Origin: Phoronis australis
Lineage: Eukaryota > Animalia > Phoronida
NCBI GenBank assembly: GCA_002633005.1
Contig: NMRA01000981.1
Coordinates: 16,486 to 80,485, forward strand
Length of the DNA: 64,000 bases
Direction: 5' to 3'
Part shown: positions 1-40,464 of the stretch, in pieces
How positions within the stretch are numbered: position 1 is the stretch's first letter
How the letters are laid out: each line of letters begins with the position of its first letter
The notes under the pieces: generated by a model
Database searches by the model: none
What the model saw: only the letters and a program-made list of their open reading frames with translations
Told to the model about the DNA's origin: nothing
Made by a program: the position numbers and the translations under genes

Positions 1-89
1 TTAACATGCATGACTTTCACTTAAAGGAGTCCTGAAATGTTATGTTTTTACGAATTTTTAATTTTGGTATGGCTTTAGTTTTAACTTAC

Positions 90-3000
90 TGGTTCAGATT
101 CAGACGATGGAAAGTCTGGTGGTTGTGAAGATAGCTGCAAACAGAAAAGCATTTAATTTGGTGAGAGACAGTTTAGTACATCTTCATGTGTCGTGTTACA
201 ATTTGTATGACATTTTAGTAACTTTAAACGTAACTTTTCGTAGTCTGAAATGTAACATTTCAAGTATTATTGTATTGAAGGGAGGTAGCTTTTTCGTAAA
301 GTGTTAATTTGATCCAGATGATACATTTCACTAAATCCAAATGTTTCTGAGAAAAGACTGACTGCTTTACAAATATTTCCATCAATTGTTTCATTAATAA
401 TAAAAAAGTATTAGATTGAGATCAATAAATTGTTTCTGTTTTTTTTGTGATATTGGTGTTATGTCTTTGAATTTTTCTAATGAACCCCATTTCAACTTTT
501 TTATTTCTGTCTTACCTCATTTGAGTCTGGGATGTATTCATCGCCTGACGAGCAAATTTCGGGGCTTGATCTTGATGGGCACCACTAGAATTTAAAGAGA
601 TGTGGTTCTTCAAAAATGTGTAAACCAACTTGCAATGTTTTAAGTTTGCAAAATAAACACACTTACATAGATTTTATGTCTAATATTAAAACTGGCATTT
701 AATTTGGAATGTGTCAACTATAATCAATGTCTGGTTTAGACATGGCCGTGGTATATGGGACTCGGAATCACAACTAAATTAGTTGTAAGGACTACATAAA
801 TTGTGTTTGATAATTTCGATGATATATATCTGTGTGTTTAGTTACACCAAGATGGCATAATGAGATTCAACAAGCTGAAAACCATACATCTTGAACGACT
901 GGTTTCCAAGCCAGAGGAGACAAGGTACTTGGTCCAGCGGCAGGTGATGGCTCGTGGACTGGAGGGTCCTCACTGTGTGGCTAAAATGAAAACACAATAT
1001 ATGTTAGCCATATCATTACAAAGAACCTCACAACTTGGTGAAGCACAAAATAGTGACCATTGGACACTTGATTTTGCTCTTTTAATTGTTGGCAAATTAG
1101 TATAGCAACTAATGTTTCTTACTCAATTAGGAGAAAAGGAGTGAAGTAACATAGGAGTTCCTAATCTATCCACATTACCTGGCTGGACTCTTCAAGAGTG
1201 GTGTCCACTCCTAGCAACCATTGGTCAGTCTCATAGCTGTCAATATGTGGCTGAAATGATTAAACGGTTTGCTAGTTATTAAATAGTGTGGTGGCAGGCT
1301 TGTCCAAATCATGTATTCCTAAACACCATCCTGTTGTTAATGAATGCCCCTTGATTTTGGAGATATTGATCTCAGAGCGAAACTTTTTTTCTGACAGCAA
1401 TGTCAAAAATCTTAAATGTGCAACTTACCACATTTGTCAGGTCCTTGTCCAAATACTCTTCCTCTCTAAATTCGTAGACATCCACGTCTGCATTCTAAAA
1501 TATATTTTCACTTTTCAGTTACTCTAGAGTGTAACATGGTTTATTGTAATACCAAATGGAAATCTTAATATCCAGCTTTGGTCGTTATGTTTCCTCCATT
1601 ATGTTACCTAAATTTGAAACAGATTTGTTTTGTTCAACTGGATGATCACAAAGTTTAGAAACCAATTGGACTGCACGCATTTTCGTATGCAAAAACAGGC
1701 TTTGAAATGTTTGTGTTTTCCACTAATAATATCTATTTGAACTTAATGGTGTAAAGCATCTCAATTTAAAAAAGTCTCTTGCTTCACTTCTGTCTCTTCT
1801 TCATACATTGTGTCTCCTTTGGTTTCTCTCTGATGTAAATATAAAAGATTATTAATCTGATCCTCTTAACATGGAAGTTACATCATCGTATTAATCATTA
1901 TCATGCTGGAAACTAAGCTACTTATTTTTAATTACTAACATTAATTTAAGAGTTTAAATGATAATAATTCATGCAGTGTAATATTAGTGTTGTTGTCAAT
2001 CAATGTATTTTTAATAAATGCAAGCAATATTAAATAAATACTACAAATTGGTGTTTTCTTCACGATTATTAGTGTACAATAACATTCACCCCTACCTCAG
2101 GCATAGCCCTTGAACTTGCATTGAATATGTATGGAGTCTGAAAAACAGACAAAACCACGAATTATGTATCTAAATGTCGTTGGAACGACAGATGCATTAA
2201 TCTGTGCACAAATATTTGAGTTGTTTGAATTGCTTTAAATAATTGTAATCAATTAAAAATGTGGAATGCAAAAGTCTGAATGTATAGTTGTCGAAATTCA
2301 CACTTTTACCACAGGTAATAACTTACCTTTCTTTTGTCCGAAATTTGTTCGACTTCAGGCTGAAATGGGTGCAATGCGAAATTGTTAATTTGTATATTTT
2401 ATAATATAATCGAAATCTTGAGTCATCCAGTAAAAACATATAGGAACAGCTTTAAACAAAAATTAAGCCTGGTATACAAATTTGGAAACTACAAAATTAA
2501 TTTATAATGAATGTGCACAAAACAAACACAAATCTGCTGTTATGGAAATTTAGATATAAGATTCTTGAAGGGCTCTTGTCTCCTTCAAAGGGTGTTGTAA
2601 ATGGTTGTTTGCTGGACATCTGGTCAAAAATGATCTTGATCATATCAGGGCTTGGAATTTTCCGCGGAAACGCGGATTTCCGCTTTTTTCAAATGTGTTT
2701 TCCGCTTTTTTTATAATATTTCCGCGTAAAAAAATAGGATTTGATATAAAATTTCTGCGGGAAATTCCTTTCTTACCGCGGGGTTGCAGACGACGTTCAC
2801 ATCGAAAAGCGGAAGTTGCTCTTCATGTTTCGGAGGAACGTAAATTGTCATCATTGCCGGGGCATCTGGGACAGCGTGGTGGGAGATTTTCAATGGCGTC
2901 TCGTGTTATTGTTAAGCGCGGCGACAAATACTACCGCTCTGCAGCCAAAAATGTGTGGGTTGGGAGTGGACGGGCGGGTTAAAAGGACGCAGATGCATGC

Positions 3001-6000
3001 TACTGATGGTGGTAACGTTTTTTTTTTCTTTTTTTAGTCCTCCCGATTTTTGTCGGGGAAAGGTTCACACTGACCATTTCAAGGCTGGTTTCCGCGTTTT
3101 TTGTCATTGGTCATTCCAAGCCCTGTCATATGCTTTATGTAATTAGTGGTATCGTCCCATTTCCAGGAATATGCTCAATTTTGAGATACCATGCAGAGAG
3201 AAGAACAGGTACCACAGAGGAGTTCAAGAGACTATCTACATTAAAACCTTGAAGCCATCCTTCAACAAACTATGTGGCGTTAAGTTGAAGCTGGCCTTGA
3301 TGATGGCATGGAGTACCAAAACAACATGAAGAAGACAATCCATTACTTGAGTTCCCATTATTCACAATCATTCTTTTGAAGAAGGCAAGATATCTCAGAG
3401 GATCTAGCAGGTTTTAAAGGTAAAAAATGTCCAAGTCAGCAGATTTTGTTTCTATAGTGCACGTTCAGGATAATTTAATTTTGTGTCCAAACATATATAC
3501 CAGGGCTAAATGTAGTTAAAATGTGCAATATTACTGTGTTCCAAAAAGTTGAGCAAACATGTATTGTGACATTGTGAACATTAGCCTTATAATTCAAATG
3601 GGGCTTATTTTTCGTTAGTAAAGGCAATGCACATTTAAGTTTAACTAGGACCTTATCAACTGTTTCTGAGATGTGCTCCCCAAAGTTAGTCACATATACT
3701 TTTAAGTTAAACTAATTTAAACATCGCAGCGTTTTCAAGTGTAAAGACGATAGCAGATTAATTGTGAAGTTACTCGTATATGAAAGACAAATACTTACAT
3801 AGCCCCCGTCTGTTTTTCTCTTTCGCTTTTTGGATTTGGAATTTTTTACTTCCATCTGAAACACGCAAGAATGCATCTCAGCAAGTTGACCCAAGCTGTT
3901 CTCAAATTGAAGTTACTAACCCTCTCAGTATATGAATATCACCGGTTATTTTCAGTGTACTATTTTTTCCTGGAATTGTATGCAGGAGCTTCAATCGGTT
4001 TTATATTTCTCTTAAAAATCCAACTCAATACATATGCAATTGGAAAGTATGTATGTGCTGACAAATTTAAAATAGCGATTTTAAGCAAAGTAAGTTTTTC
4101 ACAGGTAATGGAAATCGACTTTCAAACAGAGTGGTTCAGACAAGGTCACGTTTCGAGCATAGCAGCAATATCATCTTAAATCAAATAATGCTTGTATACT
4201 CCTAGTACATGCAACAACTTACCACTTCGTTGTCCTTCTTTTGATCTGCTGCAGTCTGAAATGCATATGAAATACTGACTGACTCGAAAACCACATGTGA
4301 TTTCTGATATGTATCATAATCCCATTGAAGGTGAATGCCACCCAATTTAGTTAGTCTCTTTTACAGTCTTAATCAGTCTATTTGGTTCACTAGTATAGTG
4401 TTTTCTTGGCTGGAAGTTTTTAACTTTGGCGGGTTTATGTTGGTGGTGTCTTTAGTTTGGTGGTGACGGGTCTGATTGGTTTCTAAGCCACTGGCTGGGA
4501 TAACTAGTGTGTTGTGTGTTTAGAACTGAAAAATCACAAATCTAATTATTACAACACTTAGCTATGTTATCCGCCCTGCCTGTACTTCATGGAAGAATAA
4601 TTCGACTTTATCACGGAACTGACCCCAAACTCCTGCAACCGAACTCTGTAAGGTTACGGTACTATCATATACTTAAAAATCAGTGACAGTGAAATAATAC
4701 AACACGTTTGTTCAAGAACTCAATGTTTTTGTAAATGTTTTACCTCATTAAGCATGTTGTCAACTGCTGACCGACTGCATTAGACGCTCTGACGTCATTG
4801 GTTAATTTGAAAACATCTGTTTGCCATCAGGTGCCGGGTAAAAGAACTGAACTCATTGTTATCCAGTTGAACTACTCTATCTAAATTGATACAAAACTGG
4901 TTGTTTTTCGGTGGCATTCTCCCTTAAGGAAATACTTAAATTGCAGTTTAGCTGAAACTAGAATGTGTGTACTTTTATTTTTTCTTCCAAACTTGTATAA
5001 CGGAGCTCAATTGATGTCCAAGAGATTTATAAATTCTACTACAAGTTCTTCAGTCTGAAGGTAAGGATATGTGTAGTGCGAAATTGTGAATGCGCTGTTA
5101 ATTTTAACCAAGAAAGTCGATTTGAACTACTGTAAACAGAGCATCAGAATAATTATTTTATTACAGGCAAATAGTACTTACATTTTCCGTGTCCAATTTT
5201 CTCTTGGAACCTTTGGCTTTGGTCTGAAACACACAAATATGCTATTCGAGATGCCAATCAAACCTATTCAGAATAGAGTTGCGAACTGTATTTCAGTTCT
5301 TAATTAATTTTATCAAAGATTATTTTCAACAAATCATTATTTTTTCTCCAAACTCGAACTAGGAAGCAAGACAAAATACTGTTCTTAGGGTCATCTTAAA
5401 AACTTCAGTTTTTTACACATGCATTGCAAATTGAAAATGGGGTGAAAACTCTAAGTAACTTAATTTAAATGAGGTTAATTTTAGTCACACCTTTTGTTTT
5501 CTCCACCAGAGTGAACCAGGATCTCCACGGTAATCATAATGGAGCTCCTCTCCTTTGTCGATATCCCTGCTCGCATACAGGACCAGGCGAGGAGTGTCAG
5601 ACACTACTTTCAATTTCATAGTGCTATTGCACTCAGCTGTGCACTCCTCTGCATCATTCACGAGATGCGCAAGTCTTCCAACAGTGTCTTTGGCATCAAT
5701 GCTACAGAACAAAAAGAGGAAGTGTGTGAGTATTAAAGTGGAATGGTTGAGTGTTGTGTTACATGTCGATTGTATGATGCACGAACACCATGTGGGTGAG
5801 TGTTTGCACTTACCACATTTGTTTTCCACTGTATTTGAAGTAATACTGGTAAAATCTAGGGAAAGGTGTATCTGGAGGCACCGATACTTTGACGTCTCTT
5901 GCCAGTAACAGTTCCCCAACATATTCCAGAAGGAAGTCGCCCTTGCTGAAGGTTTTTGTTGTAAAGACACCACGGCCTGAAATATTTTTAAGAACAAAAA

Positions 6001-9000
6001 CGTTGAAACCTCTTTCACACACGCGCACCCCCACTTCCACCGCCTTTATGTGGCTTGTCTGTCATGTCATGTGCCGCCCCAACCCTGAGTTGTCACCCAC
6101 TGTCTTCGTCAATTTTGTACCAATTCTTTTTTGTTAGTGCCGTCCTCTTCCATACTTACTGCTGTCTACCTGTGGCTTCAACATTCCCCTAGCATCATTC
6201 ACAGTAGATGTTCACATTGCTCTATAGTTAAATTTGAACTTCAATTTCACCTAAATATCATTTTGTAAAACTATCCAAGTCATGACATCACGCAAACAGT
6301 TATTAATTTTTCCAATAATCATGCATTGTACCAATGTAAAGTTTAATTGCATCCTCTTACATGTATGCTCAAAAACAATTCATGTGAATTAATAAGTTAC
6401 CTAAGTCTGAAAACAATTATACCTCTAGCACAAAAGTAGTGCATGACATCAGTGGCTCGTGTGAGCACTGCAACTATTCTGAGACTGTTCCAACAAATCC
6501 TCGGGCTGTAAGTGTGATGATCACTGTAATAGTTTACTTAAGATTTAAAAGTGCATTACCCTTTTCTTCGGAGACGTATCGGACATCAAAGCCTTCTTGG
6601 TCATAACCCGCATTGCAGAAAAATTGAGCATTCTGCAAACCAAATTGAATTAGTGTAAAGACATTGCCATGTTTAGTTAAGATGTTATATTGTCATCACA
6701 TGCTGACATGGAAGCATTGTTGAGTGCAAAGCAATAACAGATCAGTTCCAGAAGTTGTCGTTTTATCATTGACCAATAAGGGGATAGCATATAAACCCGC
6801 TTTCTACCTGAAACATGCAATATTATGTGCAGAATGGTAGTCAGTAACATCAAAGGCTTATTTAAGAGGACTAAAGGTCACGGTGTTAATGTTTTGTTTT
6901 TCTCCGAATTGGTTGGGAAGAGATGATTTTATAATTAGAATTTTTACTGCCTCCAAGAAACTTGCAGTTTAGAACTTCATACCATATTGTAGGGTGCTGA
7001 AAATGATATACTAACAAAAGTCCCTCCAGTGCAAAAGTAGTAGCTGTAGTAGTAAAGTGTATTCTGGATCCATTAACAACATATCTATTTTGTCTCAAGC
7101 AAACGTAGTAGCATTCCAAGTGTTGGGATGATAACAGATTAGCTTTTATAACAGGCAATTAAGGTATTATTTTGATTGCTAAGGCGATAGATCAAGTGAA
7201 AAGGTTGTTTTTTATGACTTACATGCTCCCTGTCTGTTTCTCTCGTCCTTCGTTTTTTTGTTTGAGAAGTAACGGGTTCCACCTGAAACGTGCATTAATT
7301 TGTGTAGGCTTCAAGACCACAAAACTCGTTTTAGGAGGTGTATCTCATTTCTTAGTAGCCAAATGTCAAAGATCTCATTCATCTAGTAACATTATTTCTT
7401 CCAAACTTGTATAGAGGAGCTTATTTTGCAAATAGTGATTTTTCAACCCTATTATTTTTTTAATTTTATTATACGTGCGTTGTGAAATGGGAGCAGGCTG
7501 AACAGTTCCCACTTACAAAATTGAAGTTTTGAGAGCAGATAATTCAAGTTATCATTTTATGGGCAATTTTTACCTCTCTCTTCTCCACATTTTGAATCTG
7601 TGTTTTCCTTTTCGTGTCCTTTTTTTCAGATGCCATCTGAAACATGCAAGAATGTGTATAGAGACAGTAACCAAAGTTGAATTCAGACTAGACTTGTGAA
7701 TTACCTTTCATCTTGAACAGTCCCACTATTATTTTTTCAAACAGGTGCTCTCTTGTTCTAGATAAAACAGTTTTCACAGTTTTCTTAAAAGCTTGGTAGA
7801 TATGCAATACAAAATTGTGAATCTGCTGACAATTTTGAAACTAATAACTTTAAACAAAATGTGCGTATTAAATCATGCATTGGCAACTGCATACATGTAT
7901 ATGTTCTGTCTCAGTCTGTAATTTCTAAGAGCATTTATGACTAACAAGTTGTAACAAGGTTATATTTTCATTTGCTAAGCCAATGGACTTATAATTCAGT
8001 CTCATTATAACATGGAAGCATTTTCAAATGTAAAGGCAATGTTAGTTCGATTCTAAAATTGAAACACAGAAGCTACTTCATATACCTCTCCAGTCTCCGC
8101 TTTTTCATGTACCTCTCCCTTCTCTGCTTTTCTCCGCTTTTTCTTTTTCTTTTTCTTTTTTTCGGAATCCATCTGAAACACGTTGGAATATGTGTTGAGA
8201 TGTAAAGATGAAATCAGAATTCAGACTAGAAGTATGAATAGTATCTCAGTAATATTAAATAGTTATTTAACAAATTAAGTTTTAGGTTTTCTTCAAATTT
8301 GTGCTTACTACATTGAATTTTGTGCTTTGATCACAGGCAACAACTTACTGCTCTCTTATCCTTTTGCTTGTTTTGAAACTGAAATGCCTAGGGAAATTTA
8401 CAGACTAACTGAAAACTCACTGGAATCATGTATCGTGGCCACAGTGAAAAAATATTAAAATCACACTTTTGCTGCTTGGACTGTTTTGCGTGTTCTTTGA
8501 TATTGAGCTTCCGAACTTGTACAGTTGAGTTAAATTGTTCAAGAAGAATGCGATTCCAGAGCAAGTTCGTGAACTGGAGACACCATACCCTGCTAGGGAT
8601 TGTATTAAAGAGAACTTCATAACTCTGCTAATCTACAAGGTAGTGACCATCATGAACACCATAATTTATTGTTTTAATCGTTTATAAAATAAAAAAGCTT
8701 CAAATGTTTTTTTCAATTGGGATCAAATGATTAAACATAGAAATTCCTCATCTGTTGATATTACCTGTCTGAACTCCTCAACTGGCTCAAACGTGGTGTT
8801 CTGTACCGGCAACCGAGGTTCCTTATCGAAGCTGTCAATGGGCCGCTGAAAGTATCACAGGCTTCCTTGATATTAAAGGGGCGTTATTAGTTATGATCTT
8901 TACCTTCGCTCAGTCATGGTGATATGTAAAGTAGTTTAAGATTAAATGGTGTAGTAGCAGGCTTGTCAGGAATACAAGGTAGGCTTGAAAATGCTACAGT

Positions 9001-12000
9001 TTTGGTAGAAAGCATCTTCACAATAAGGAAATTCACTTGGTTTTCTTGCATATTGGCTAAATAGTGAAACAACATTTTTCTGGAAAATATTAAATGTCCA
9101 ACTTACCACTTTCTTTAACTCCTTATCCAAATACTTTGTTTTCTGTGTTGTGAACAGTGACTTGTCTGTTGTTTTTTCCTCCCTTAGTTCGCACACATCC
9201 ACATCTGTGTTCTAAAATATATTTTGCACATTTCATTAATTTTGGTAAAACATACCTTTCCTTACCAAATTGAAGTCTTAGCATGAAAATGTGGTCATCA
9301 TGTCACCAACTTTTAAAAGGGATTCAGTGCTTTAAACTTCGTGATCAAAACAGAAACTTTAAAAGTTTAAAAACCAATTGATTTTAGGCGAGAACATTAA
9401 ACAAATACTGGTACAAATTGAGGTTTTCCTCACGATTGTTGATCCACAGTGACGTTTCCTTTATCTCAGAAGTAACACTTCCACTCACTTTGATTGTTTT
9501 AGGTGGGTGAAACACAAAGTTCACCAAAACACCAATTATGCAGCAGTGACCTCATATGAATACGAGATAGCCATAGGAAAAAGTTTTCTGAATGGCAAAT
9601 GTGTTTACATTTGTACTGATTATTGCGCCATTTGCATTGCCTTAAAAAATAGTGATTACAATATAAATATTTGAATTAAGTGGAATGTGAAATCTTGAAT
9701 ATATTGAATGTTTTAACCAAAAAATGTGACATTTCTTTTTTCCTGTGTAAAGGAATTTGTTTAAGTATAGTGGCAACAGCGGTTTAACTCAAGTAATTCG
9801 TGCTTTTTTCACAAGCAGTACGTTACTTTTACATTGTTGTCATTTGCTTTATTTAAAGCTGAAAGGTGGGCAATGAGAAATTGTGAATGTATGTATGTAA
9901 TAGTATTATGGAGATGTTGAGCCATGCGGTGAAAACATATTCTTGGAACAACTTTTAGCAAAAATCAACTCTGCAGTTTAAGTTTGGAAACAATGTTTAA
10001 GTTCATGAAATTTAGGCAAAAGAAACACAAATCTGCTCTTTTGGACAGTTTCATAATTAGGTTCTTGGTTAATTGCCGAAATTACAGTCACATGTGATCT
10101 TGTTCATGTTACTTAAGTCATCGGTGCTATCATACCATTTGCAGGAGTTTGAGATCAACAATCAAAATGTCGAGATACCATGCAGAGAGAAGAAACTGGT
10201 TCCTTAGGAGAGTTCAAGAGATCATCTACATTAAAGCCTGAAGCCATCCTTCAATGAACAAAGTGGTGTTAGGTTTAAGCTGCTGTCTGCTTGAGATGGT
10301 TGCATGGAGTACATAGCAACATGAAGAACACTACCCATTACTGGAGTCTCACTGCTCACAGTCATTCCTTTAAAGGTCTTGGAGGTTCTGGGCGTTTTTA
10401 AAGGTAAATTTCCAGAACAACAGATTTGTGTTCTTATAGTGCGCATTGGGTGTAATTATTTTTCTGCGAACTTGATGGGAAGAGCTGATTTTATAATTAG
10501 CATTTTTACTACCTTCTTGAAAATTGCAGTTTAGTATGTTACGGGATACTGTAAAATGCTGAGTGTTATACCGAATTTGCCGCAATAACCGCCTAAGCCC
10601 CTATAAGTGCCCCCAACGAGTTTTTAGACTTTGCTAAAATAAGCGACAATCCATGAACGTGTACATGCGAAAAATAAATTACCTACAGTCATAAAATTCT
10701 ACAGTAACATCTTCAATTTTTTAAATAATGTCTGACAGTCCTGAAAAAATCATGGTGCGCAGAATTTGTTTACGAGGCTCGCCGCTATCTCGGTATTTAG
10801 CCATAACTTTACACTTCAATCTTCCGCCATGCCTCAAAACCAACACAAAAGTTTTGCTGATCTTATGAGGACCAATGTTCTGGCCTTTCTGAACAGACGT
10901 AGTTATAAATGGTTTATAATAAGTGCCCCCCTGAAACGAACTTTTCTTAGCTTACTGGGCCGTTATTACGGCAAATACGGTTCTACCAAAAGTCCAACCA
11001 GTGCAAAAGTAGTAACTTTTTCAAATATAAAGTGTATACCGCATCCATTAACAGTATATCTATTTGATCTCAAGCAAATGTGGTAGCATTTCATGTGTTA
11101 AGATGATAACAGATTAACTCAACAAGTTATCTTTTTGTCATGGACAATCAAGGTATTATTTTGAGTGCTAAGGCGATAGCAGATCAAGTGAAAAGGTTAT
11201 CTTTTGAGGACTTACATGCTCCCTGCCCCTTTCTGTCATCCTTTGTTTTTTTGTTTGAGAGATTTCGCCCTCCACCTGAAACGTGCATCAATTTGTGTAG
11301 GCTTCAAGACCACAAAACTCGGTTTAAGAGGTGTATCTCATTTCTTAGTAGCCAAATGTCAAAGATCTCATTCATCTAGTAACATTATTTCTTCCAAACT
11401 TGTACAGAGGAGCTTATTTTGCAAATAGTGATTTCTTAACCCTATTAAGAATTGCAGTTTAGTATATGTTCTATATCAAATGTGAACGACTGAAAATTTA
11501 TGTCGCAGAGGATTCTCAAAAGCCCGAAGTCTTTTATCGACCACTTTACTGAGTGTGAGTTGGCGTCCAGCCATTGTTGGCCAGCCTTTACGAAGGACTA
11601 TCTCAAACAAAGTTCTCAGAATCCTTGCGGAGTTCTAAAAAAACAGAAAAAATGAACTTTTGCAAATACAGTAGCCTATTCTAGTGAACAAATGAGAGCA
11701 GTTTAATTCAGAAGGTTATCATTTTATGGGCACTCTTTACCTCTCTCTTCTCCACATTTTGACTCTGTGTTTTCTTTTTCATTTTCTTTTTATCAGATTC
11801 CACCTGAAACATGCAAGAATATGTATAGAGATAGTAACCAAAGTTGGAATTCAGACTAGACTTGTGAATTATCTTTCATCTTGTACAGTCCACTATTATT
11901 TTTTGCAAGCACGTGCTCTTTAAAGTTTATTAGATATGCAATACAAAATTGTGAATTAGCTGACAATTTTGAAGCTAATGAATTTACACAAAATGTGCGT

Positions 12001-15000
12001 ATTAAATCATACATTGGCAACTGCATACTTGTATGTTCTGTCTTAATCTGTAATTTCTAAGAGCATTTATTACTAACAAATTGTAAAAACGGTTATATTT
12101 TCACTTTCTTAGCCAATGGACTTATAATTCAGTCTCATTATAACATGGAAGCGTTTGCAAATGTAAAGGCAATGTTAGTTTGATTCTAAAATTGAAACAC
12201 AGAAGCTACTTCATATACCTCTCCAGTCTCGGCTTTTTCAAGTACCTCTCCCTTTTCTGTTTTTTTCTGCTTTTTCTTTTTCTTTTTTTCGGAATCCATC
12301 TGAAACATGTTGAAATATCCGTTGACATGTAAAGATGAAATCAGAATTCAGACTAGAAGTATGAATAGTATCTCAGTAATATTAAATAGTTATTTAACAA
12401 ATTAACTTAGGTTTTCTTCAAATTTGTGCAGATGATACATTTCAAGACAAAATGATGTTTGTACAGTTTTTTTTAAACCTGCAGCTTACTACATTGAATT
12501 TTGTGCTTTGATCACAGGCGACAACTTACTGCTCTCTTATCCTTTTGCTTGTTTTGAAACTGAAATGCCTAGGGAAATTTACAGACTAACTGAAAACTCA
12601 CTGGAATGATGTATCATGGCCACAGTGATGAAATATTAAAATCACATTTTGCTGCTTGGACTGTTTTGCGTGTTCTTTGATATTGAGCTTCCAAACTTGT
12701 ACAATTGAGTTAAAGTGATCAAGAAGAATGGGATTCCAGACCAAGTTCGTGAACTGGAGACGCCATAAACTGCTAGGGATTGCATTAAATAGAACTTCAT
12801 AACTCTTCTAATATGCAAGTTAGTGACCATCATGAACACCATATTTTGTTGTTTTAGTCGTTGACTAATTAACAAAGCTTCAAATGTGTTTTTCAATAAG
12901 GAGAACATGATTAAACATGGAAGTTTTTCATTTATTCATATTACCTGTCTGAACTTCTCAGCTGACTTAAATGTGGTGTCCTGTCCTGGCAACCGCGGCT
13001 CCTTATCGAAGCTGTCAATGGGCCGCTGAAACGATCAAATGGCTTTCTTGAAATTAAAGGGGGCGTTATTAGTTATGATCCTTACCTTCGCTCAGACATG
13101 GTGATATGTAAAGTAGTTTAAGATTAAATGGTGTAGTAGCAGGCTTGTCAGGAATACAAGCTAGGCTTGAAAATGCTACAGTTTTAATGTACTGTTTGGC
13201 AAGTCTCGAGGATTGCGTAGAATGTGTATTGCCAATAAGGAAATTCACTTGATTTTTAGCATATTGGCTAAATAGCAAAACGACATTTTTCTGGAAAATA
13301 TCAAATGTCCAACTTACCCCTTTCTTTAACTCCTTATCCAAATATTCTGTAGTCTGTGTTGTGAACAGTGACTTGTCTGTTGTTTTTTCCTCCCTTAATT
13401 CGCACACATCCACCTCTGCATTCTAAAATATATTTTATACCTTTCATTAATTTTAGTAAAAACAAACATTGCAATACCAAATGGAAATATTAGCCTGAAA
13501 GTGTTATCATGTCTCCATGCATTATGTTACCAACTTTTAAAAGGGATTCAGTGCTTTAAACTTCGTGATAACAACAGAAACCTTAAAAATTTATAAACCA
13601 ATTGATTTTAGACGAGAACATTAAACAAATACTGGAACAAATTGAGGTTTTCCTTGTGATTATTGATGGAGAGGGACGTTTTTCTTACATGAGAGGTCCC
13701 ACTTTGACTCCCTTTGATTACTTTAGGTGGGTGAAACAAAAAGTTAACCAAAACACCAATCATCCAGTAGGGTACCTCATATAAATATGCGAGCCATAGG
13801 AAAATATTTTCTGAATTACAAATGTGTTTACATTTGTTCTGATATTTTTGCCATTGGCGTTGTGTTAAATAATAGTGATCCAGTAAAAATATTTGAATAA
13901 TGTGAAATGCAAAATTTTGAAATGTTTTTAACCAAAAAAATATGGACATTACTTTTTCGTGTGTACTTGTTTAAGTATAATGGCAATAGCTGTTTAATTC
14001 AAGTAATTCATGGTTTTTCCAAAGCAATCAATTACTTTTCCATTGTCGTCATTTGCTTTACCTAAAGCTGAAAGGTGTGCAATGAGACCTTGTGAATGTA
14101 TGTATTCAATAGTATTATGGAGATGTTGAGCCATGCGGTGAAAACATTCTTGGAACAACTTTTAGCAAAAATCAACTCTGCAGTTCAAATTTGGGAACAA
14201 CAAAATTATGTTACATTCCCAAATTAAATTACATACCCAAAAGAAACACAAATCTGCTCTATTGAACATTTGCATATGAGATCCTTGGAGAGCTCTCATC
14301 TCCTTTCAAAGGTGATGGTTAATTGCCGGAATTACAGTCACATGTGATATTGTTCTTGTTACTTAAGTCATTGGTGCTATCATACCATTTGCAGGAGTCT
14401 GAGTTATCAATCAAATGTTGATATACCATGCAGAAAGAAGAAACTGGTTCCTTAGAGGAGTTCAAGAGATCATCTACATTAAAGCCCAGAAGCCACCCTT
14501 CAATGAACTTGGCGGTGTTAGGTTTAAGCTGCTGTCTGCTTGAGATGATTACATAGAGTACATAGCAACATGAAGAACACTACCCATTACTGGAGTTCCC
14601 GCCATTCACAATCATCCTTTGAAGGTCTTGGAGGTTCTGGGAGTTTTTAAAGGTAAATTTCCAGAACAATGGATTTGTGTTTTAATAGTGCGCATTGGGT
14701 GTAATTTAATTGCTGTGTCCAAACTTGTACAGTATGGTTAAGTTTTGTTAAAAGTTAGCGATTCTACAGCTTTCCTAAAAAGTGAAGCTTAGGATGCATG
14801 TGATGTGACATTGTGAACTCACTATTAGTCTTCTAGTTTGAATGAGGTTACTTTTTCGCTTGTAAAAGCCCGCAGCATTTAAGGCTATTTAGGATCTTAT
14901 TGATAAGTATGTGCATGAAGTCAAATATCTAGAAAATTATAGAATATAAGTACAAAATTTCCTAGAAGTAAAAAGTCTGCGGAAATTATACTTTTACTTG

Positions 15001-17763
15001 ATGCCATTCAACAATTAAATCGGTCAGTTGTATTCCATGTATTTTAAGAAAAACGACCGAAAATGAAAAGTACTTTCACAGCAAAACAGCGGTATCACTA
15101 CAATGTCCACATATTGTTTAATTGAATTGTTCAAGACAAAATCGTCAAAGCACTTTGTTTTTGTTGTAAACCAGTTCTGATTTTTCATGAAAATCCCGAA
15201 AGTTATAATTTTTGATAGCCCCACAACAGTGGATTATTTTGAAAACAAACCTGAACGGCATTTTGAGAACAGGGCATAAAGAATCAGATCTGAAAGTTTC
15301 ATATCAGTTCCATCAGCTGTTTCAGAGATATGCTTTTCCAAATTGTACCAAATTTGGCCACTTTTCCTTCCATCTCCCAGATATCGTTAAGTTGAACTAA
15401 TCCCAACATGGTATCATTTTCAAATGTAAATAAGGCAATTGCTGATTGATTCTAAATTGATCAGTACATGACAGGCATATACTTACATATTCCCTTTTTC
15501 TCTTCTTGCGTTTTTTAGTTTTGGATTGTTTTGGTTCTGTCTGAAACACACAAAATTTGTATTTAAGCTGTTTTCAGATATATAATTAATTTTGATATGC
15601 CATTGATTCAATTTTTGTCTAAATTATATGGAGATGCTTAAATTCTGTTTCCACTCCTCTTTAAAATGCAACTCTGTACATATGCAAGGGAAACTGAACA
15701 AGTTGACAAATTTAAAATAACAATTTTAAATAAAATTAGTTATTCAAGTGTCAAGGAAATCGACATTTAATCAGAGTAATTCACACAAGGTCTTCTTGCA
15801 AGAACAGCTATTATCGCCTCTTAATATGAATAATTCATGTTTTTATCAACAGGCAACAACTTACCACTCCATTGTCCTCCTTTTGACCAGCTTCAGTCTG
15901 AAATATGTATGACAACATAGACTGACTCGAAAACCGCAATTGAATTATAATTGGAAGTATGCATCATAGCCTCTGTTACAAAATATTTAAATTGCATTTT
16001 AGTTGTGTTCTTTTATTTTGTGCCTCTTAATATGTATAGTGGAGTTCAATTTATGTTAAAAAAAATTAGTGATTCTTCTGGAAGTTGGACGGCTGAAGTT
16101 TAGGATATGTATAAAGCAAAATTGTGAACAGGCTGTTAAATTTAATTTGAAGAACTCTAATGCTAGAAAAGGCAATAGGCATTTGATTGGAACTAATGTA
16201 AACATAGATTCATTTCCAAGTATAAAGGCAGATTTATTCAAAAAGTTTCATTGCAAGTAATTACACACCTCTCCTGTGTCTGATATTCTCCCCTTCTTTT
16301 TCTTTTTTTTCTTTTTTTGGGACTCCATCTGAAACACACAAGAATATGTATGGGCTTAAATATGAAAGGTGACATCAGACTGCTGTACTAAGTCATACCC
16401 TGTGTATAGTGGGAGGAGATTAAATTAAGTTAAAGGCAAAATATTTTACAGTACTTTTAGTGTTTGAAGTTTCTTATATGTGCCTCGCGAAGTTGTGATT
16501 GTGCGGCAGCCATTTAATTGAAATAGTTCACATTTTTATCACTGACAACAACTTACTGCTGCCTTGTGTTGTTTTTGCACGGCTTCAGTCTGAAACATGT
16601 AAGAATATAAGAGTGACTCAAAAAACACATTTGGATTGGAACACTAATAATGAATCACACGTGAGCTCACAATGGAATAATAAACCATAGTGCCAGTGTA
16701 CTAATTTTGGTGAGTAAATATGCAAATTATATTTTAGCTGAGACAATCTGACTTGCATTCGGTCAACTAAAATGTGACCTAAAGCCAAAGGTCACCAAAA
16801 ACGACAATGAGGTTATAAGCATGGTCAATGCATTTTCACTTTCTGTGTCCAAACCTGTTCACCAGAGCTTAAGTGATGTTCAAGAAAAACTAGTAATTCT
16901 ACAACTCTTTAAAAACTTTAGTTTAGGATTTGTTCAGTGCAAAAATGTAAACATGCCGCACATGTTACACTAACAATCAAACAAGGCTATGTTTTTGCCT
17001 GCAAAAGTAAAGGCCTTTTAATTTGAGCAAATGCAAACATGTTAGCATTTTCAAATGCGAAGACAATGACAAATGGATTCAACAAGTTATCTTTGTATCT
17101 CATCTGGGGGAATTCCTTACTTTTTTCTCGTCTGGTTTTTGCATCCACTTTTTTTTCTTTTTCTCAGAGTCCACCTGAAACATGCAACAAAATTTGTAGA
17201 CTTAAAAACAATAGGTGAATTCACTCTGGAATGATTACTTATTTCCCCATGATACAAATTTTGGTGAAAAATATGGCGATTAGGTTTAAGTTGAAACGGT
17301 TTGGCTTGACTTGTCTCATAAGAACTAATGATTAAATTCACAATTGTAAGGTTGCAAAAATCTCGAGCGTATTAATGCTATTTCAGGTGAAAGGGCATCT
17401 GTTTAATTCAAGCAAATGCACATGTGATAGCCTTTCCAGTGTTACGGCAATTACTCGATTTCAAGAAAAAATACATCCATGAAATTGGCAGCTCGGTAGT
17501 GGCTGTTCATTTAAGTCTAATAAATTCAATCAGTGACATTTAAGCAATAATTATATGAGGAACGGTCATCCTGATCTCATTTAATGATATAAGCTGTTTA
17601 ATTTCTTACATGCAAATTTACAAAAACCTTGGTGCAATTGTCTTGGAAAAAAAAGTCAGAAATTAACATGTCAGTAGTTCAGAACAATTACCTTTTGGGC
17701 ATCATCCTGATGCGCTGAAAAGGGCTTCAAGCTGCTGTAGTCGAATTCAAAGTTCATCTGGAA
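90..17763 (-). CDS. Multi-micro-exon gene or partial pseudogene: low-complexity K/R-rich, acidic and Pro/Ser-rich protein with an internal SET domain; probably continues beyond the left edge
   Basis: Stop-free phase-0 minus-strand exons with (T)nYAG acceptors, GT donors and lengths divisible by 3: 17692-17763 FQMNFEFDYSSLKPFSAHQDDAQK; 17121-17174 VDSEKKKKKWMQKPDEKK; 16557-16589; 16269-16328; 15865-15897; 15487-15540 TEPKQSKTKKRKKRKREY; 13318-13422; 12945-13025; 11216-11275; 9107-9211; 8765-8845; 8349-8378; 8113-8172; 7574-7636; 7223-7282; SET exons; 5182-5223; 4223-4255; 3799-3855; 2327-2359; 2096-2137; 1429-1494; 1179-1250; 888-980; 516-584 WCPSRSSPEICSSGDEYIPDSNE; 90-134. Some paralogous exons (8904-9056, 13086-13267, 9827-9858, 14036-14067) have stops or lengths not divisible by 3. 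Joining into one transcript is inferred. Confidence 0.72.
2646..3125. mobile_element. Non-autonomous hAT-like MITE with 6-bp TSD
   Basis: 13-bp TIR CAGGGCTTGGAAT...ATTCCAAGCCCTG. TCATAT duplicated at 2640-2645 and 3126-3131. Empty paralogous sites near 10100 and 14350. Confidence 0.9.
3132..3330 (+). mobile_element. Penelope-like element relic, GIY-YIG endonuclease C-terminus (copy 1)
   Basis: Translates CREKNRYHRGVQETIYIKTLKPSFNKLCGVKLKL, matching the typical PLE tail RExxWFxRGVKEAIYIxxxxPSLNRDGG. Confidence 0.72.
5491..6632 (-). CDS. SET domain, PR-Set7/KMT5A(SETD8)-like lysine methyltransferase, three exons (6560-6632, 5814-5976, 5491-5701)
   Basis: GT-AG splicing with matching phases (1 then 2) gives an open frame: NAQFFCNAGYDQEGFDVRYVSEEKGRGVFTTKTFSKGDFLLEYVGELL...FYQYYFKYSGKQMCIDAKDTVGRLAHLVNDAEECTAECNSTMKLKVVSDTPRLVLYASRDIDKGEELHYDYRGDPGSLWWRKQK. 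Contains the GRGV, EYxGEL, CIDA and GEELxYDY motifs. Confidence 0.92.
10115..10300 (+). mobile_element. Penelope-like GIY-YIG relic (copy 2)
   Basis: Frameshifted NWFLRRVQEIIYIKA...PSFNEQSGVRFKL; paralog of copy 1. Confidence 0.72.
10571..10980. mobile_element. Tc1/pogo-like MITE
   Basis: Imperfect TIRs CCGAATTTGCCGCAATAA...TTATTACGGCAAATACGG. TA on the left, mutated on the right. Absent from the paralogous site near 7010. Confidence 0.75.
14365..14550 (+). mobile_element. Penelope-like GIY-YIG relic (copy 3)
   Basis: RNWFLRGVQEIIYIKAQKPPFNELGGVRFKLLSA, preceded by YHLQES. Confidence 0.78.
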
Positions 17764-20699
17764 CTAAATAAAGAAAACATGACATCAGAGTGTATTCATC
17801 AAAATGTTTTGAGTCACTGAGAAAAACGTGCCTTGGAAAAATTTAAAAATGTACCTTGTTACATCTTGTACATTTAGTAACAAAGTACCAGCTTTGCACT
17901 TTGGCTGGCATTTCATGTAGCATTTCACCACCGTAAAAGTAGTATTTTCTGGCCTCCACTTGTAAGTGTTACATGTTCTGCTGACTGCTAAAGTTTTTAA
18001 ACTGGCAATTACTTTTCTGGCTAAAATTAGTGTTAAGACATATATTCTCATTCGCAAACATTGTATTGTTGTGCAATTTGACTTAGGTTGAATAACCTAT
18101 TCAAATCAATTGTGTATTTTGCATAATAACTATTGACTGCGTTTGAAAACCAAAAAGTTCGACGAAGCGCCTGCAGCCACGTTTTTGGGTTTTTTCTTCA
18201 TTTTTAAATGTAATACTTTTTGCCAACATGAAAGTAAAAGGAAAACTTTCATGCCCGCATACATAGGAACATACACATTTACATCTTAAAAATAAAATGC
18301 CTCAAAATAAACATACTATAGGGGCCCATATGTTAACAAAATCTCAGTGAATTTTAGATTATTTTAAAAGAAGTATTGTTGAGTTTTTAAATATTTAAAG
18401 GAATCGTGTTTCTTATGGTTATCTCTAAACCTATTCACAAAATTTTACAATATTTCACACGTGTCTAGAAAAATACCTTACTTCATTCTCGGGGAACTTC
18501 AAATACAAAATATATACTGTGTAGTGAGAAAAACAAATAACAAAACCAGCTTGGAACCGCACAACCTCGTGGATATTTGTTTACTACTTGTCTGAGGTCA
18601 AAGGTTAAAGGACCTTCAATCAAATCGAATCTTATGCCAGGTACAGATCAGCTTTGCATACCCTCAGTCCTTTCATTCACAAAATTTTCATAACATTGAG
18701 TCAACGAGGTGTATTTATAGTAGAATGGTGCCGGGGAAAATGAAGGCAAAACGTAGTTTTGATTGTAAGATAGTTGTGCGTCTACATGCATACGACCGTT
18801 GGCGTTGAGAACGAATGCTACGGTCGCCTCTGTGGTCGTGAACACAGCAAGTTGTGAAAAGAAACAATTCCTTCATCCAATTAATTGAAATTGACATTTC
18901 AATGTTTTGATCTCATGCTAACGACATGCTTTAACCACCGACACATGACGTGTACAGGCTATGTGTATAACAATGAACTGTGACCTATTTATATAAAAGT
19001 AGGTCAAAGGTCACAAACAATAGTAAAAATTACCTGGGAACGGTACTGTAGTGAGATGTTTTAGTGATAATTAAGTTAATTACGCACTGCACCGTTGAAA
19101 TAGCGAACATATTTAAGGCTTGTATAGATTATGTGTACCGAGTTTCCATCGAATAATTAACCGAATACTTTTAGAAACTTAGGAACACGAGTTTTGCTGA
19201 AACTTTCCAGATTTAATGTTTAGTCATTAGTCTCAAAAACGATAGTAGGATTTTTGTTATAAAGGCCTATTTTTGCCTAATGTAACGAAGACGAATACGA
19301 CTTCCGTTTTTTACAAAGATACCTTACGTTTTGCGAGTTGATTTGTCATAGAAACCAAACGAAAAGACTAATCGAAAATTCCTAAGAGCGTTTTTAGGTA
19401 ACTAGCAAAGTTTTTATTTAAAAAGTTTCATTAAAATCGACTGAGGGGTTATTTTGCTATGGATGTACCTTTCTTAAAAATAAAATTTTGACTTAAAAAG
19501 GTTTATACGTAAAAATAATAATGGTATATTAATACAAATGTATTTTCATATTCCCTAATCTTTTTTCTTTCAGAAAATGTATACTTTTACTAGTTGTTGA
19601 TTTACGAGTTAGGTATTGTCATCTGGCACTTTTTACATAATGTGCATACATGTGTACCTTTAACTCCAATCTTATGTAAAAAAAGTTTGTTGGTGTGAAA
19701 CTAATGAGAAATCATCTCAACCTAATATCACTAGTAAGAGCAGAGATTTTAAGACAGCAATTTTGTTGAGAGTTAGTGCTTTTCTGGACCAGATCGCAGT
19801 CTTTTTGAATTTCTTTTATCTTCCAAGTGTAATTTAAACCAGCATTGTCGGATACATTGAAAATGAAGTCTATTTCCAAAAAACCTGAATTGACCTAGAG
19901 GCATTCCATGGGAGGACATTAAGGGTGTTACGTTTGAAGCTTTTCTACCTAACCAGACAGTGCTCTTGAATGGTCTGAGAAATATTAGTAAGCAGTGTGT
20001 CGATTCGCACCAGATCACAGGCACTTGAGCAAAAAGCCTGAATTGTTTTTCCTGTCATGAATTGTGTATTTCGGGTAATGACAATTGATGATGCATGATG
20101 AGGCAATGTGTCTGCCTGCAGACTTTTTGAACTTCTTTCAAATTTTAAGTTATCATAAAATCAATATTTTTTCAAGTATTGGTTGGCGTTTTTTTAAGAC
20201 ACTGTGTATCAATATGAAATTTTCCTAGATTAATTGCATCTTGTCCTTCATTCTTTCCAAAATATATCTAAATTTGAAAGTCCCAACAAGCTTCCGGTTT
20301 TGTTTTCATCAGCTGAAATCCCAAAAGATCTTGCTAAATCACAGTTCAATTACAAATAGGTTTTGTGCTCTGGCTATTTTTTACAAAATGTACATGCATC
20401 TGTAACTTTAACTCCAATGTTATCTCAAAATAAATTTGAAGTATAATTTGAGGATTAGATCTGAATGTAGCAGTAGCGTTGTGTCATGTGTATCTGTCCG
20501 TCAATGAGATAATTGTATTTTGCAGCTATGTGTAGAACACTCAATTACTCTAGTAATATAGCTATTGGCAGTAGCAAAGCGAGGACTGTCTTAATTAGAC
20601 AAGTGAAAGGTTTATATGGAAGTTAAAAATGTGTGTGTTGCATACACTAAACTTCATGATTCAAGGTTCTACAGGAAATAACAGGAAACAACTGTAGGA

Positions 20700-26800: not shown

Positions 26801-27354
26801 AGATTGTTCTGAAACCCTCTCAACCCCCACACCCCTCGACCCCCACACCCCTCGACCCACGACGCCCTCAAAACCAGGTTTGGCTCCGTCGGGTAATCGA
26901 CTCAGAATCAGCTTCGCTTGGTCTGTACAGCTGCACAAACCAGTACTCAACTAGCAGAAGCCACACATTTCAAATGCACTATAAACAATGCGTATATACC
27001 GTACTACGCTAAAGCCAGTTTCAAAAATTATTAGTCAAACAAACACTTTCTCCCTATGCCCGAGTTATGGTGGGGGTATGCCGGCCACCTGGCGATTTCA
27101 TTGATGTTGACCCCAAAATTTTGCCCCTATCCCGGGTTACGCATTTCATTGATTTCGACCTAAAAATTGGTAGGGATTCTCACCCCTTCCCATGTGCCGG
27201 CTTCGTGGGCATTTTGTTGAGCAAGACCTTTTGGTAAAAATATTAACATAACTTGTAGCTTGTGGGTCAAGGGGGGTATGGGTCAAGGGGAGTTGTGAGT
27301 CAAGGTGGTCGTGGATCGAGGGCTGTGGGGGCCAAGCGGGTTTCAGAGCAATCC
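26801..27354. mobile_element. MULE/Foldback-like non-autonomous element with 9-bp TSD
   Basis: TIR RGATTGYTCTGAAACC followed by about 16-bp tandem subrepeats (CTCGACCCCCACACCC), mirrored at the right end. TAGTTTAAG at 26792-26800 and 27355-27363. A truncated second copy begins near 29764. Confidence 0.85.
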
Positions 27355-27407
27355 TAGTTTAAGTTTATTATTTCGGTGTTGTTGATGTTTCTTGTTTGTA
27401 CTCTTGA

Positions 27408-33330: not shown

Positions 33331-33354
33331 TCGGTATAACGAAATCAGCAATGA

Positions 33355-40330: not shown

Positions 40331-40464
40331 TTGATTCGTTTGATTCAAATTAATTTTAAAAACTACACCGAACACAAAGCTTAGGCTTATCGTAAATCGG
40401 AAAAGTATTGCCCATTTTTGTGAATGGGTTATTCAAATCCGGCACCGCAACTAATTATTGTGAG

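What the first reader, a model, noticed from the sequence alone, without database searches (positions are those of the whole stretch)
90..17763. Hidden gene of 20+ symmetric phase-0 micro-exons wrapped around a SET methyltransferase domain
Seen: more than 20 short minus-strand segments with canonical splice sites, all stop-free, phase 0 and divisible by 3 (30, 33, 42, 45, 54, 57, 60, 63, 66, 69, 72, 81, 93, 105 nt), which is unlikely by chance. Two classes often alternate: 54-63 nt K/R-rich NLS-like or nucleic-acid-binding-like exons and 30-33 nt linkers with GTAAGTTGTTG donors. The SET block also starts and ends in phase 0, so it could be skipped as a module. Established: symmetric micro-exon arrays generate protein variation by skipping in schistosome MEGs. 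Inference: a combinatorially spliced chromatin enzyme with tunable basic tails, an architecture I do not recall for KMT5A-like genes.
Basis: partly seen in the sequence, partly recalled or inferred. Interest (0 to 1): 0.8.

Follow-up and report, generated by a model that had tools for sequence, protein, structure and literature searches.

The report
Duplicated small exons around SET methyltransferase
This is an animal gene in which repeated local DNA duplications stacked up 28 small frame-preserving exons around a histone-methyltransferase-like domain; it belongs to a known but little-studied multi-copy family whose full-length relatives also carry a DNA-recombinase domain, so it is likely derived from a jumping element, and mix-and-match splicing was not shown.

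Summary
A model of 31 minus-strand exons (17763 to 90) reads as 699 codons without a stop: 28 are phase 0-0 (30-105 nt) and three encode a SET domain. The symmetry is mostly inherited: 23 of the 28 are copies in three families made by tandem duplications of 3.5-4 kb blocks. Frames and splice sites were kept by selection; amino acids only weakly. The SET domain is not canonical KMT5A. It belongs to the expanded KMT5A-like family reported in cnidarians and sea urchin (PMC10368294). Eight of 19 named relatives continue into a tyrosine-recombinase-fold domain; any such domain here would lie beyond the window's left edge. RNA-seq (three runs, about 19% read) shows mainly antisense transcription with one spliced antisense joint. 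Sense reads are few and match exon sizes, and no listed joint is a sense joint. MEG-like combinatorial splicing is untested; schistosome MEG membership fails. Verdict: new member of a known kind, interest 0.35.

The parts
17692..17763 (-). Exon E0, 72 nt, phase 0-0, holds a possible start ATG; unique
   Evidence: sense footprint 149 nt in this bin in X1 and X2, about 2 x 72
17121..17174 (-). Exon A1, 54 nt, K-rich
   Evidence: sense footprint 91-104 nt
16557..16589 (-). Exon B1, 33 nt linker, GTAAGTTGTTG donor
   Evidence: 2 sense reads cover 16561 with only 68 nt in the bin
16269..16328 (-). Exon A2, 60 nt, K-rich (donor read by hand)
15865..15897 (-). Exon B2, 33 nt linker
   Evidence: sense footprint 72 nt in X1
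15487..15540 (-). Exon A3, 54 nt, K/R-rich
   Evidence: no sense coverage seen
14036..14067 (-). Dead copy of exon C, 32 nt, in-frame TAG, splice ends intact
13318..13422 (-). Exon D1, 105 nt, mixed charge
12945..13025 (-). Exon F1, 81 nt
12530..12559 (-). Exon B3, 30 nt
12246..12299 (-). Exon A4, 54 nt, K-rich; alternative in-frame donor at 12219 gives 81 nt
11741..11803 (-). Exon A5, 63 nt, K-rich
11216..11275 (-). Exon A6, 60 nt
9827..9858 (-). Dead copy of exon C, 32 nt, in-frame TAA
9107..9211 (-). Exon D2, 105 nt (copy of D1)
8765..8845 (-). Exon F2, 81 nt (copy of F1)
8349..8378 (-). Exon B4, 30 nt (copy of B3)
8113..8172 (-). Exon A7, 60 nt (copy of A4 with a 6-nt indel); alternative in-frame donor at 8086 gives 87 nt
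7574..7636 (-). Exon A8, 63 nt (copy of A5)
7223..7282 (-). Exon A9, 60 nt (copy of A6)
6560..6632 (-). SET exon 1, 73 nt, phase 0-1; pre-SET segment shared with relatives
   Evidence: joined SET 50% identical to P0004 over 147 aa
5814..5976 (-). SET exon 2, 163 nt, phase 1-2
   Evidence: Pfam SET E=7e-4; sense footprint 248 nt vs 2 x 125 in X2
5491..5701 (-). SET exon 3, 211 nt, phase 2-0; GTGTGA donor, read-through hits TGA at 5485-5487
   Evidence: Pfam SET E=2.5e-7; SETD8 E=5e-6
5182..5223 (-). Exon G, 42 nt, basic
4223..4255 (-). Exon B5, 33 nt (copy of B2)
3799..3855 (-). Exon A10, 57 nt, K/R-rich (copy of A3)
2327..2359 (-). Exon C, 33 nt (live form of the two dead copies)
2096..2137 (-). 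Exon H, 42 nt, unique (donor read by hand)
1429..1494 (-). Exon D3, 66 nt, acidic
   Evidence: sense footprint 127 nt vs 2 x 66 in X2
1179..1250 (-). Exon F3, 72 nt
888..980 (-). Exon I, 93 nt, Pro/Ser-rich
516..584 (-). Exon J, 69 nt, acidic Ser-rich
90..134 (-). Exon K, 45 nt; last exon seen, its donor points out of the window
7011..14706 (.). Younger tandem duplication: 10983-14706 vs 7011-10457, six exons each, 88% identical in aligned columns
1014..5107 (.). Older duplicated block after SET, collinear with 12783-16145 before SET, pieces 68-73% identical
5510..5725 (+). Exon of a spliced antisense RNA overlapping SET exon 3
   Evidence: joint 5725->10145 GT..AG, 6 reads; loose end at 5508, 6 reads, matching the stretch from 3388
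10145..10403 (+). Antisense exon inside a Penelope-like GIY-YIG tail remnant (motif recalled); 3' end inferred from the paralogous donor
3135..3419 (+). Paralogous Penelope-like remnant giving the upstream antisense donor near 3419 (third copy at about 14396-14652)
2646..3125 (.). MITE-like insertion in an intron, 13-bp inverted ends, 6-bp flanking direct repeat

Best explanation
This is one spliced gene of the expanded animal KMT5A-like SET family, whose charged, predicted-disordered arms were built by tandem duplication of phase-0 exon blocks, and which likely continues beyond the window into the zinc-finger and tyrosine-recombinase part that full-length relatives carry, as a likely transposon-derived chromatin enzyme. 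Steps. (1) Shown: exon anatomy, SET identity, duplication history. An older duplication put the block B-A-[Penelope-like remnant]-C-D-F on both sides of SET; a younger one doubled six exons before SET. (2) Shown statistically: selection kept frames and splice sites. Amino acids drift almost as fast as introns, as expected if length and charge matter rather than sequence. (3) Inferred: because every junction is phase 0, any whole-exon duplication, loss or skip keeps the frame, so the array can grow; two copies that became 32 nt with a stop must be skipped. (4) Inferred: the basic tracts bring the protein to the nucleus and to DNA or nucleosomes, and the SET domain transfers a methyl group to a lysine, most likely histone H4K20 by likeness to SETD8; the family-wide His-to-Asp change in the NH motif leaves activity open. 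(5) Inferred, about 55%: a recombinase part lies left of base 1. (6) Shown for three runs: sense mRNA is rare there and an antisense spliced RNA dominates; by analogy with relatives the sense gene would peak at embryonic genome activation.
For: Blind scan 19 of 29 vs 2 of 57. Self-BLAST blocks. 23 of 28 exons in three families. Younger duplicate: 1 exon indel of 6 nt vs 39 intron indels of which 9 are multiples of 3; dN 0.105, dS 0.214, Fisher p=0.042. Neutral simulation expects 2.8 stops, 3.1 splice-site hits and 4.0 frameshifts; none is seen, and 0 of 20,000 runs had none. SET exon 3 scores 80.8 bits on family member P0003 vs 29.9 on human SETD8. The window SET sits in a 38-row clade (100/99) with the recombinase-bearing rows, apart from three other SET proteins. 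Of 19 hand-picked named relatives, 10 have the Cys/His and helical region and 8 the recombinase region. The oyster relative's C-terminal domain folds like XerH (Z 8.2, rmsd 4.4, 137 aligned); the first 16 rows are all tyrosine recombinases, type IB topoisomerases or recombinase-fold phage proteins. The Atlas lists a PF00589 cluster (29% of members, score 0.91, 107 shared features: a lead only). SET-to-zinc-finger spacers in 9 relatives are 141-638 aa; the window holds 184 aa. PMC10368294 reports up to 65 such genes in Hydractinia and 61 in sea urchin, activated at genome activation; its S8 table lists DNA_BRE_C in 3 Hydractinia genes. 8 of 18 relatives in alignment A1 show Val three residues after the WR motif, which I read as an unspliced GT donor at nearly the same place.
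Against: No zinc-finger or recombinase exon is in the window (best HMM E=0.18 and 3), no genome is held, and 11 of 19 relatives' models lack the recombinase part. One of these may be a split model: P0072 and P0189 both list a 560,261-bp longest contig. The relatives came from length-filtered searches, one was found by its recombinase part, and the two HMMs were built from an alignment holding many of them, so 8 of 19 is not a prevalence. No microsatellite or clear terminal repeat marks an element end upstream. No canonical KMT5A was in the tree. No listed joint is a sense joint, and 18 of 33 joints were not shown. pN (0.098) is not significantly below intron divergence (p=0.35). Foldseek alone gave no recombinase match at E<=0.001 (best 0.048); sequence searches of PDB, PHROGs and NCBIfam gave none. 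16 of 19 relatives start SET within 140 aa, so a 366-aa N-terminal array is atypical.
Confidence: 0.68

Rival explanations
1. One reading: a host chromatin enzyme whose symmetric exons are skipped in many combinations, MEG-style, to tune basic tails, with SET as a skippable module.
For: All 28 small exons and the SET block are phase 0-0. Two exons have in-frame alternative donors 27 nt apart. RefSeq models of the oyster relative differ by whole 20-aa and 10-aa units (X2 vs X4, X8), though these are predictions and some come from different copies. One reading of the X1 footprints (B1 and B2 covered, A2 and A3 not) allows skipping.
Against: Duplication explains the symmetry without any splicing function. 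The same footprints fit plain inclusion, since low-complexity exons were masked. Exon sequences are mildly conserved (omega 0.49 and 0.30), not diversifying. No skipping joint was listed.
Confidence: 0.14
2. A decaying, now mostly silenced copy of a SET-recombinase element. The exon array is a recent relic, and the main product is an antisense non-coding RNA that may help silence the family.
For: Antisense depth exceeds sense about 15-20 fold at 17578-18028 (6.7 and 5.5 vs 0.33). The only listed joint in 4950-18450 is antisense and covers SET exon 3. X3 holds antisense reads of a diverged paralogous SET copy with an in-frame stop (loose ends at 5665 and 5709). Two dead exons and several inserted repeats.
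Against: No stop, frameshift or splice-site loss in 12 exons over about 12% divergence. The SET frame is intact over 149 codons. Sense reads with exon-sized footprints exist. The tissue or stage of the runs is not known.
Confidence: 0.12
3. Two or three separate genes: a short SET protein ending at the TGA at 5485-5487, with the other exons on different transcripts.
For: The donor after SET exon 3 (GTGTGA) is weak and overlaps an in-frame stop. No read joining SET to its neighbours was listed. Many relatives' models end just after SET.
Against: No AATAAA or ATTAAA in 5484-5224. The post-SET exons are paralogues of pre-SET exons and have no start or conserved domain of their own. Long relatives run on from SET into low-complexity repeats. 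The short models are mostly from short or unannotated contigs.
Confidence: 0.06

Closest known systems
Expanded KMT5A/SETD8-like genes of Hydractinia, Hydra and sea urchin (Ayers et al. 2023, PMC10368294; seen: passages, section 9, S8 table)
   Same: SETD8-like SET that is not the canonical C-terminal form; low-complexity sequence after SET; several copies per genome (a diverged paralogue appears in X3 reads). Relatives found here in molluscs, cnidarians, echinoderms and a fish share the VND motif and post-SET repeats.
   Different: SET is internal here, behind a 366-aa duplicated array; most members have SET near the N terminus (16 of 19; exceptions also in the S8 table). The passages I saw do not discuss exon structure or call the genes mobile, although the S8 table lists DNA_BRE_C for three of them.
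Canonical KMT5A/SETD8/PR-Set7 (H4K20 monomethyltransferase)
   Same: Best solved match of the SET domain; GRG, EY and YDY motifs kept.
   Different: NH motif is ND; 29.9 bits vs 80.8 for family members; SET is not C-terminal; multi-copy.
Crypton DNA transposons, incl. CryptonV (PMC3212892, PMC8869645, PMC5753468; passages seen; the Repbase report itself not seen)
   Same: Relatives carry a tyrosine-recombinase-fold domain with R, K, R-K-H and H...Y motifs.
   Different: The animal Cryptons described in PMC3212892 have the recombinase as their only recognisable domain. No recombinase, element end or microsatellite target is visible in this window.
Schistosome micro-exon genes (MEGs; PMC4350168 passages, PMC10526429 listing)
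   Same: Most of the coding region is small symmetric exons.
   Different: No signal peptide or hydrophobic N terminus; a conserved catalytic domain; dN/dS below 1; variable skipping not shown.
Disordered proteins built from symmetric exons by internal tandem duplication (Schad et al. 2013, PMC3632108; abstract and outline seen)
   Same: The same route: symmetric exons, tandem duplication, charged low-complexity product.
   Different: Here the array flanks a likely transposon-derived SET domain on both sides.

Membership tests
Expanded KMT5A-like SET family (PMC10368294) | SET domain closest to SETD8 among solved structures but far weaker than a canonical orthologue | tested here: met
   SETD8 is the top PDB hit at 29.9 bits; family hits reach 80.8 bits
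Expanded KMT5A-like SET family (PMC10368294) | Groups with other family members by phylogeny | tested here: inconclusive
   Inside a 38-row clade at 100/99, but no canonical KMT5A row was in the tree and the inner place is unresolved
Expanded KMT5A-like SET family (PMC10368294) | SET not at the C terminus; followed by further sequence | tested here: met
   At least 184 aa of in-frame exons follow SET in the model; the joining splice itself was not seen
Expanded KMT5A-like SET family (PMC10368294) | SET near the N terminus (most members) | tested here: not met
   366 aa precede SET; 3 of 19 relatives and some S8-table genes are also exceptions, so this is typical, not strict
Expanded KMT5A-like SET family (PMC10368294) | Many dispersed copies per genome | tested here: inconclusive
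   No genome held; one diverged paralogue seen in X3 reads
Expanded KMT5A-like SET family (PMC10368294) | Activation at embryonic genome activation | not testable with these tools
   Stage and tissue of X1-X3 are not given
SET-tyrosine recombinase (Crypton-like) elements | Tyrosine recombinase domain in the same gene | tested here: inconclusive
   Absent inside the window, which ends within the spacer range of relatives; present in 8 of 19 relatives
SET-tyrosine recombinase (Crypton-like) elements | Element ends: short direct repeats or a microsatellite target | tested here: inconclusive
   No microsatellite or clear terminal repeat in 17.7-24.5 kb; the other end is outside the window
Canonical KMT5A orthologue | C-terminal SET with the NH cofactor motif and high identity to SETD8 | tested here: not met
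   Internal SET, ND motif, weak score
Schistosome MEG | Coding region mostly very small symmetric exons | tested here: met
   28 of 31 exons symmetric, 30-105 nt; MEG range 3-81 bp (PMC10526429 listing); none here under 30 nt
Schistosome MEG | Signal peptide; secreted or membrane-anchored | tested here: not met
   Highest 11-residue hydropathy among the first 40 windows is -0.14; an unseen coding 5' exon is not excluded
Schistosome MEG | Pool of isoforms by exon skipping | tested here: inconclusive
   No sense joint was listed in 4950-18450
Schistosome MEG | High dN/dS of the mature protein | tested here: not met
   omega 0.49 and 0.30 between paralogous exons; a paralogue test on 131 and 39 codons, not an orthologue test

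The most novel reading that the evidence does not exclude
A domesticated SET-tyrosine-recombinase transposon gene that has evolved a MEG-like switchboard: 28 or more symmetric exons skipped in combinations to tune the charge of the arms around a chromatin methyltransferase, kept quiet in most tissues by a spliced antisense RNA that covers the catalytic exon.
Probability: 0.1. Interest if true: 0.8.

Novelty: new member of a known kind. Interest (0 to 1): 0.35.

Why it matters
The exon array itself is ordinary in origin. The value lies in the family. Animal genomes hold tens of 'extra' KMT5A-like genes that switch on at genome activation (PMC10368294). Relatives examined here join that SET domain to a tyrosine-recombinase fold, which suggests they are mobile elements carrying their own chromatin writer. 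My searches (open-access library only) found no paper making that link in its main text, only DNA_BRE_C rows in one supplement. This locus adds a case where the linker grew by exon-block duplication on both sides of SET while staying in frame, and where antisense RNA overlaps the catalytic exon. It is a usable test locus for whether such genes are active, domesticated or silenced.

Tried and rejected
No whole genome is held, so the gene could not be extended left or its copies counted. No RNA holder was listed by index; three raw-read runs and one contig set came by species label. X4 contigs showed only repeats in the pieces listed. Word-indexed search with exon 3 alone found nothing. Locus searches: alignment A1 had no usable conserved stretch; viral contigs gave no relative for P0004 or the recombinase alignment; metagenome contigs gave one 11-residue match (L001), not followed. 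The full-length model of the oyster relative (mean pLDDT 56) returned only SET matches in the rows shown, so the C-terminal domain was folded alone. PHROGs, NCBIfam and PDB sequence searches did not detect the recombinase. Pre- and post-SET regions had no BLASTP match among the fetched proteins at E<=0.01. Rfam: 0 matches. The antisense exons joined give no long frame (longest stop-free stretch 93 codons), so a protein-coding antisense gene was rejected. A K-rich-type acceptor at 6807 leads into stops and was left out. A 5' exon is hinted by 34 sense nt in 18029-18450 but could not be placed. Sense signal of 72 nt in 14872-15322 may come from a repeat there or from a 39-nt candidate starting at 15289 that has an in-frame stop; unresolved. 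Repetitive false hits (P0006, P0047, P0051, P0129) were dropped after Pfam showed no SET. Crypton, Dada, Repbase and meeting-report passages did not describe a SET-bearing element. The zebrafish Chr4R paper mentions SET genes silenced in ovary but no recombinase; no link was tested. bioRxiv supplements were not available and could bear on the claim that the link is not in print.
Full report
Observation. The minus strand of 90-17763 holds a run of short segments with canonical splice ends. My model has 31 exons. Twenty-eight are phase 0-0, 30-105 nt and open in frame 0. Three (73, 163 and 211 nt) encode a 149-codon SET domain and together also start and end in phase 0. Joined, they give 699 codons without a stop. 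A blind scan recovered 19 symmetric open segments among 29 candidates on this strand and region, against 2 of 57 in the other strand and the rest of the window. The other nine I read by hand. The exons are small rather than micro: none is under 30 nt.

Where the symmetry comes from. Self-BLAST shows two rounds of block duplication. An older one (pieces 68-73% identical) put the same ordered block, introns included, before SET (12783-16145) and after it (1014-5107). A younger one doubled six exons (10983-14706 vs 7011-10457). Clustering with flanks puts 23 of the 28 small exons into three families and leaves five singles; the largest family links the K-rich and linker exons partly through weak scores, so the number of independent origins is about 8-10, not 28. 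A duplicated exon keeps its phase, so the array needs no special design. Disordered proteins built this way from symmetric exons are described in the abstract of PMC3632108.

Is it under selection? In the younger duplicate, exons and introns are equally alike (88.8% and 88.3%). Exons have one indel, of 6 nt; introns have 39, of which 9 are multiples of three. dN is 0.105 and dS 0.214 (Fisher p=0.042). pN does not differ from intron divergence (p=0.35). A neutral simulation with the intron rates expects 2.8 stops, 3.1 splice-site changes and 4.0 frameshifts in these 12 exons. None is seen, and 0 of 20,000 simulations had none. Selection therefore keeps the frame and the splice sites, and cares little about the residues. 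Two 32-nt copies of exon C carry stops but keep AG/GT ends; a full-length product must skip them.

What the protein is. SET exon 3 matches Pfam SET and human SETD8 best among solved structures, at only 29.9 bits. It matches a large set of animal and unnamed proteins far better (218 representatives at E<=0.001, up to 80.8 bits for a single-domain hit). These share a VND motif where SETD8 has NH. Named relatives come from oysters, scallop, clams, coral, Hydra, sea stars and a seadragon. In a tree of 41 SET rows the window falls in a 38-row clade at 100/99; I left out near-identical isoforms and rows without near-full SET cover, and no canonical KMT5A was available. Long relatives read: short basic N terminus, SET, low-complexity repeats, a CxFC zinc-finger region, a helical region and a last domain with R, K, R-K-H and H...Y motifs. 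Folded alone, that domain of the oyster relative matches XerH at Z 8.2, and the first 16 rows are all recombinase- or topoisomerase-IB-fold chains. Foldseek put the same class first but without significance. Among 19 hand-picked named relatives, 10 have the zinc-finger region and 8 the recombinase region; this sample is biased towards long proteins and the profiles were built from many of the same rows. The window has neither region, but it ends 184 aa after SET, within the 141-638 aa spacer range.

Literature. Ayers et al. 2023 (PMC10368294; passages, section 9 and S8 table read) report up to 65 KMT5A-like genes in Hydractinia, 24 in Hydra and 61 in sea urchin. [quoted passage not shown] Three Hydractinia genes have a DNA_BRE_C hit in the supplement. 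Seven searches of the open-access library found no paper that describes these as mobile elements. An unreviewed note of this scan on another genome (e1-8792193) describes a SET-recombinase element in microsatellites. It agrees with the reading I had logged before seeing it and is not independent evidence. I found no microsatellite or terminal repeat upstream here.

RNA. Three raw-read runs with the same species label were laid, 18-19% of each. The only joint listed in 4950-18450 is 5725->10145 with GT..AG on the plus strand, 6 reads with the first mate on minus. This fixes the library orientation and shows that the bulk of the signal is antisense to the SET gene. A loose end at 5508 (6 reads) matches the stretch from 3388, giving an antisense RNA with exons ending near 3419, 5510-5725 and from 10145. 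Its outer splice sites lie in duplicated remnants that look like Penelope GIY-YIG tails (motif recalled). It has no long frame. Sense reads are very few. Their per-bin totals fit exon sizes: 149 nt vs 2 x 72, 104 vs 2 x 54, 68 vs 2 x 33, 248 vs 2 x 125, 127 vs 2 x 66. At 16561 two sense reads add up to only 68 nt in the bin, so each aligns over one 33-nt exon and is most likely spliced. Two bins (14872-15322, 18029-18450) have sense signal without a modelled exon. No sense signal was seen on the exons between 13422 and 6560, apart from repeat-derived signal in 10362-11714. No sense joint is listed, so exon connectivity and skipping remain untested. X3 also holds antisense reads of a diverged SET paralogue with an in-frame stop, so the genome has at least one decayed copy.

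How it most likely works. One gene encodes a long basic and acidic arm, a SETD8-like domain and an acidic spacer that likely leads to zinc-finger and recombinase parts. All-phase-0 junctions let the arms grow by block duplication. The basic tracts likely serve nuclear import and DNA or nucleosome binding, and the SET domain likely methylates a histone lysine; both are inferred. I put 0.68 on this, with about 0.55 for the recombinase lying just outside the window. MEG-like combinatorial splicing gets 0.14: oyster models differ by whole repeat units, but nothing here shows it, and the MEG tests for signal peptide and high dN/dS fail. A decaying copy silenced by antisense RNA gets 0.12. Separate genes split at the TGA get 0.06; no poly(A) signal follows that stop.

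Verdict. Real, well-formed and less exotic than proposed: a new member of a reported but poorly understood family, with an unusually long duplicated N-terminal array and an antisense partner. Interest 0.35.

Noticed in passing
window 3135-3419, 5510-5725, 10145-10403 (+): Spliced antisense RNA overlapping SET exon 3; its outer splice sites lie in duplicated Penelope-like remnants; antisense signal also covers much of 14-18.4 kb unspliced.
   Followed up: partly
window 5665-5709 (reads of run X3): Loose ends of 4-6 antisense reads come from a diverged paralogous SET exon with an in-frame stop elsewhere in the genome.
   Followed up: partly
window 2646-3125: MITE-like element with 13-bp inverted ends and a 6-bp flanking direct repeat; by far the most abundant sequence in the RNA laid on 1-20000.
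   Followed up: no
window 52681-62298: About 9.6 kb of higher-order tandem repeat with a unit near 500 bp (65-92% identity between copies) and almost no long frames.
   Followed up: no
window 44689-45543 and 48602-48907 (+): Broken Gypsy-like retroelement remnants: PNMA/gag-like Pfam hit and a reverse-transcriptase-like fragment judged by eye.
   Followed up: no
window 32986-33662: Retroelement integrase remnant (Integrase_H2C2, E=3e-13), with a neighbouring piece on the opposite strand.
   Followed up: no
window 18010-20000: Repeat-derived RNA on both strands just upstream of the gene; a possible non-coding first exon with a GTAAGG donor near 18482 could not be confirmed.
   Followed up: partly
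window 24736-29941, 37128-41279: Several dispersed repeats copied two to four times inside the window (72-96% identity).
   Followed up: no
P0002, P0001 (relatives): Relatives also expand by tandem duplication: five SET copies in a seadragon model and eight partial ones in a sea cucumber model.
   Followed up: no
P0042, P0160, P0159 (relatives): Some family members carry extra Ulp1/C48 protease or FHA domains after SET; C48 proteases are also cargo of some Cryptons (PMC3212892).
   Followed up: no
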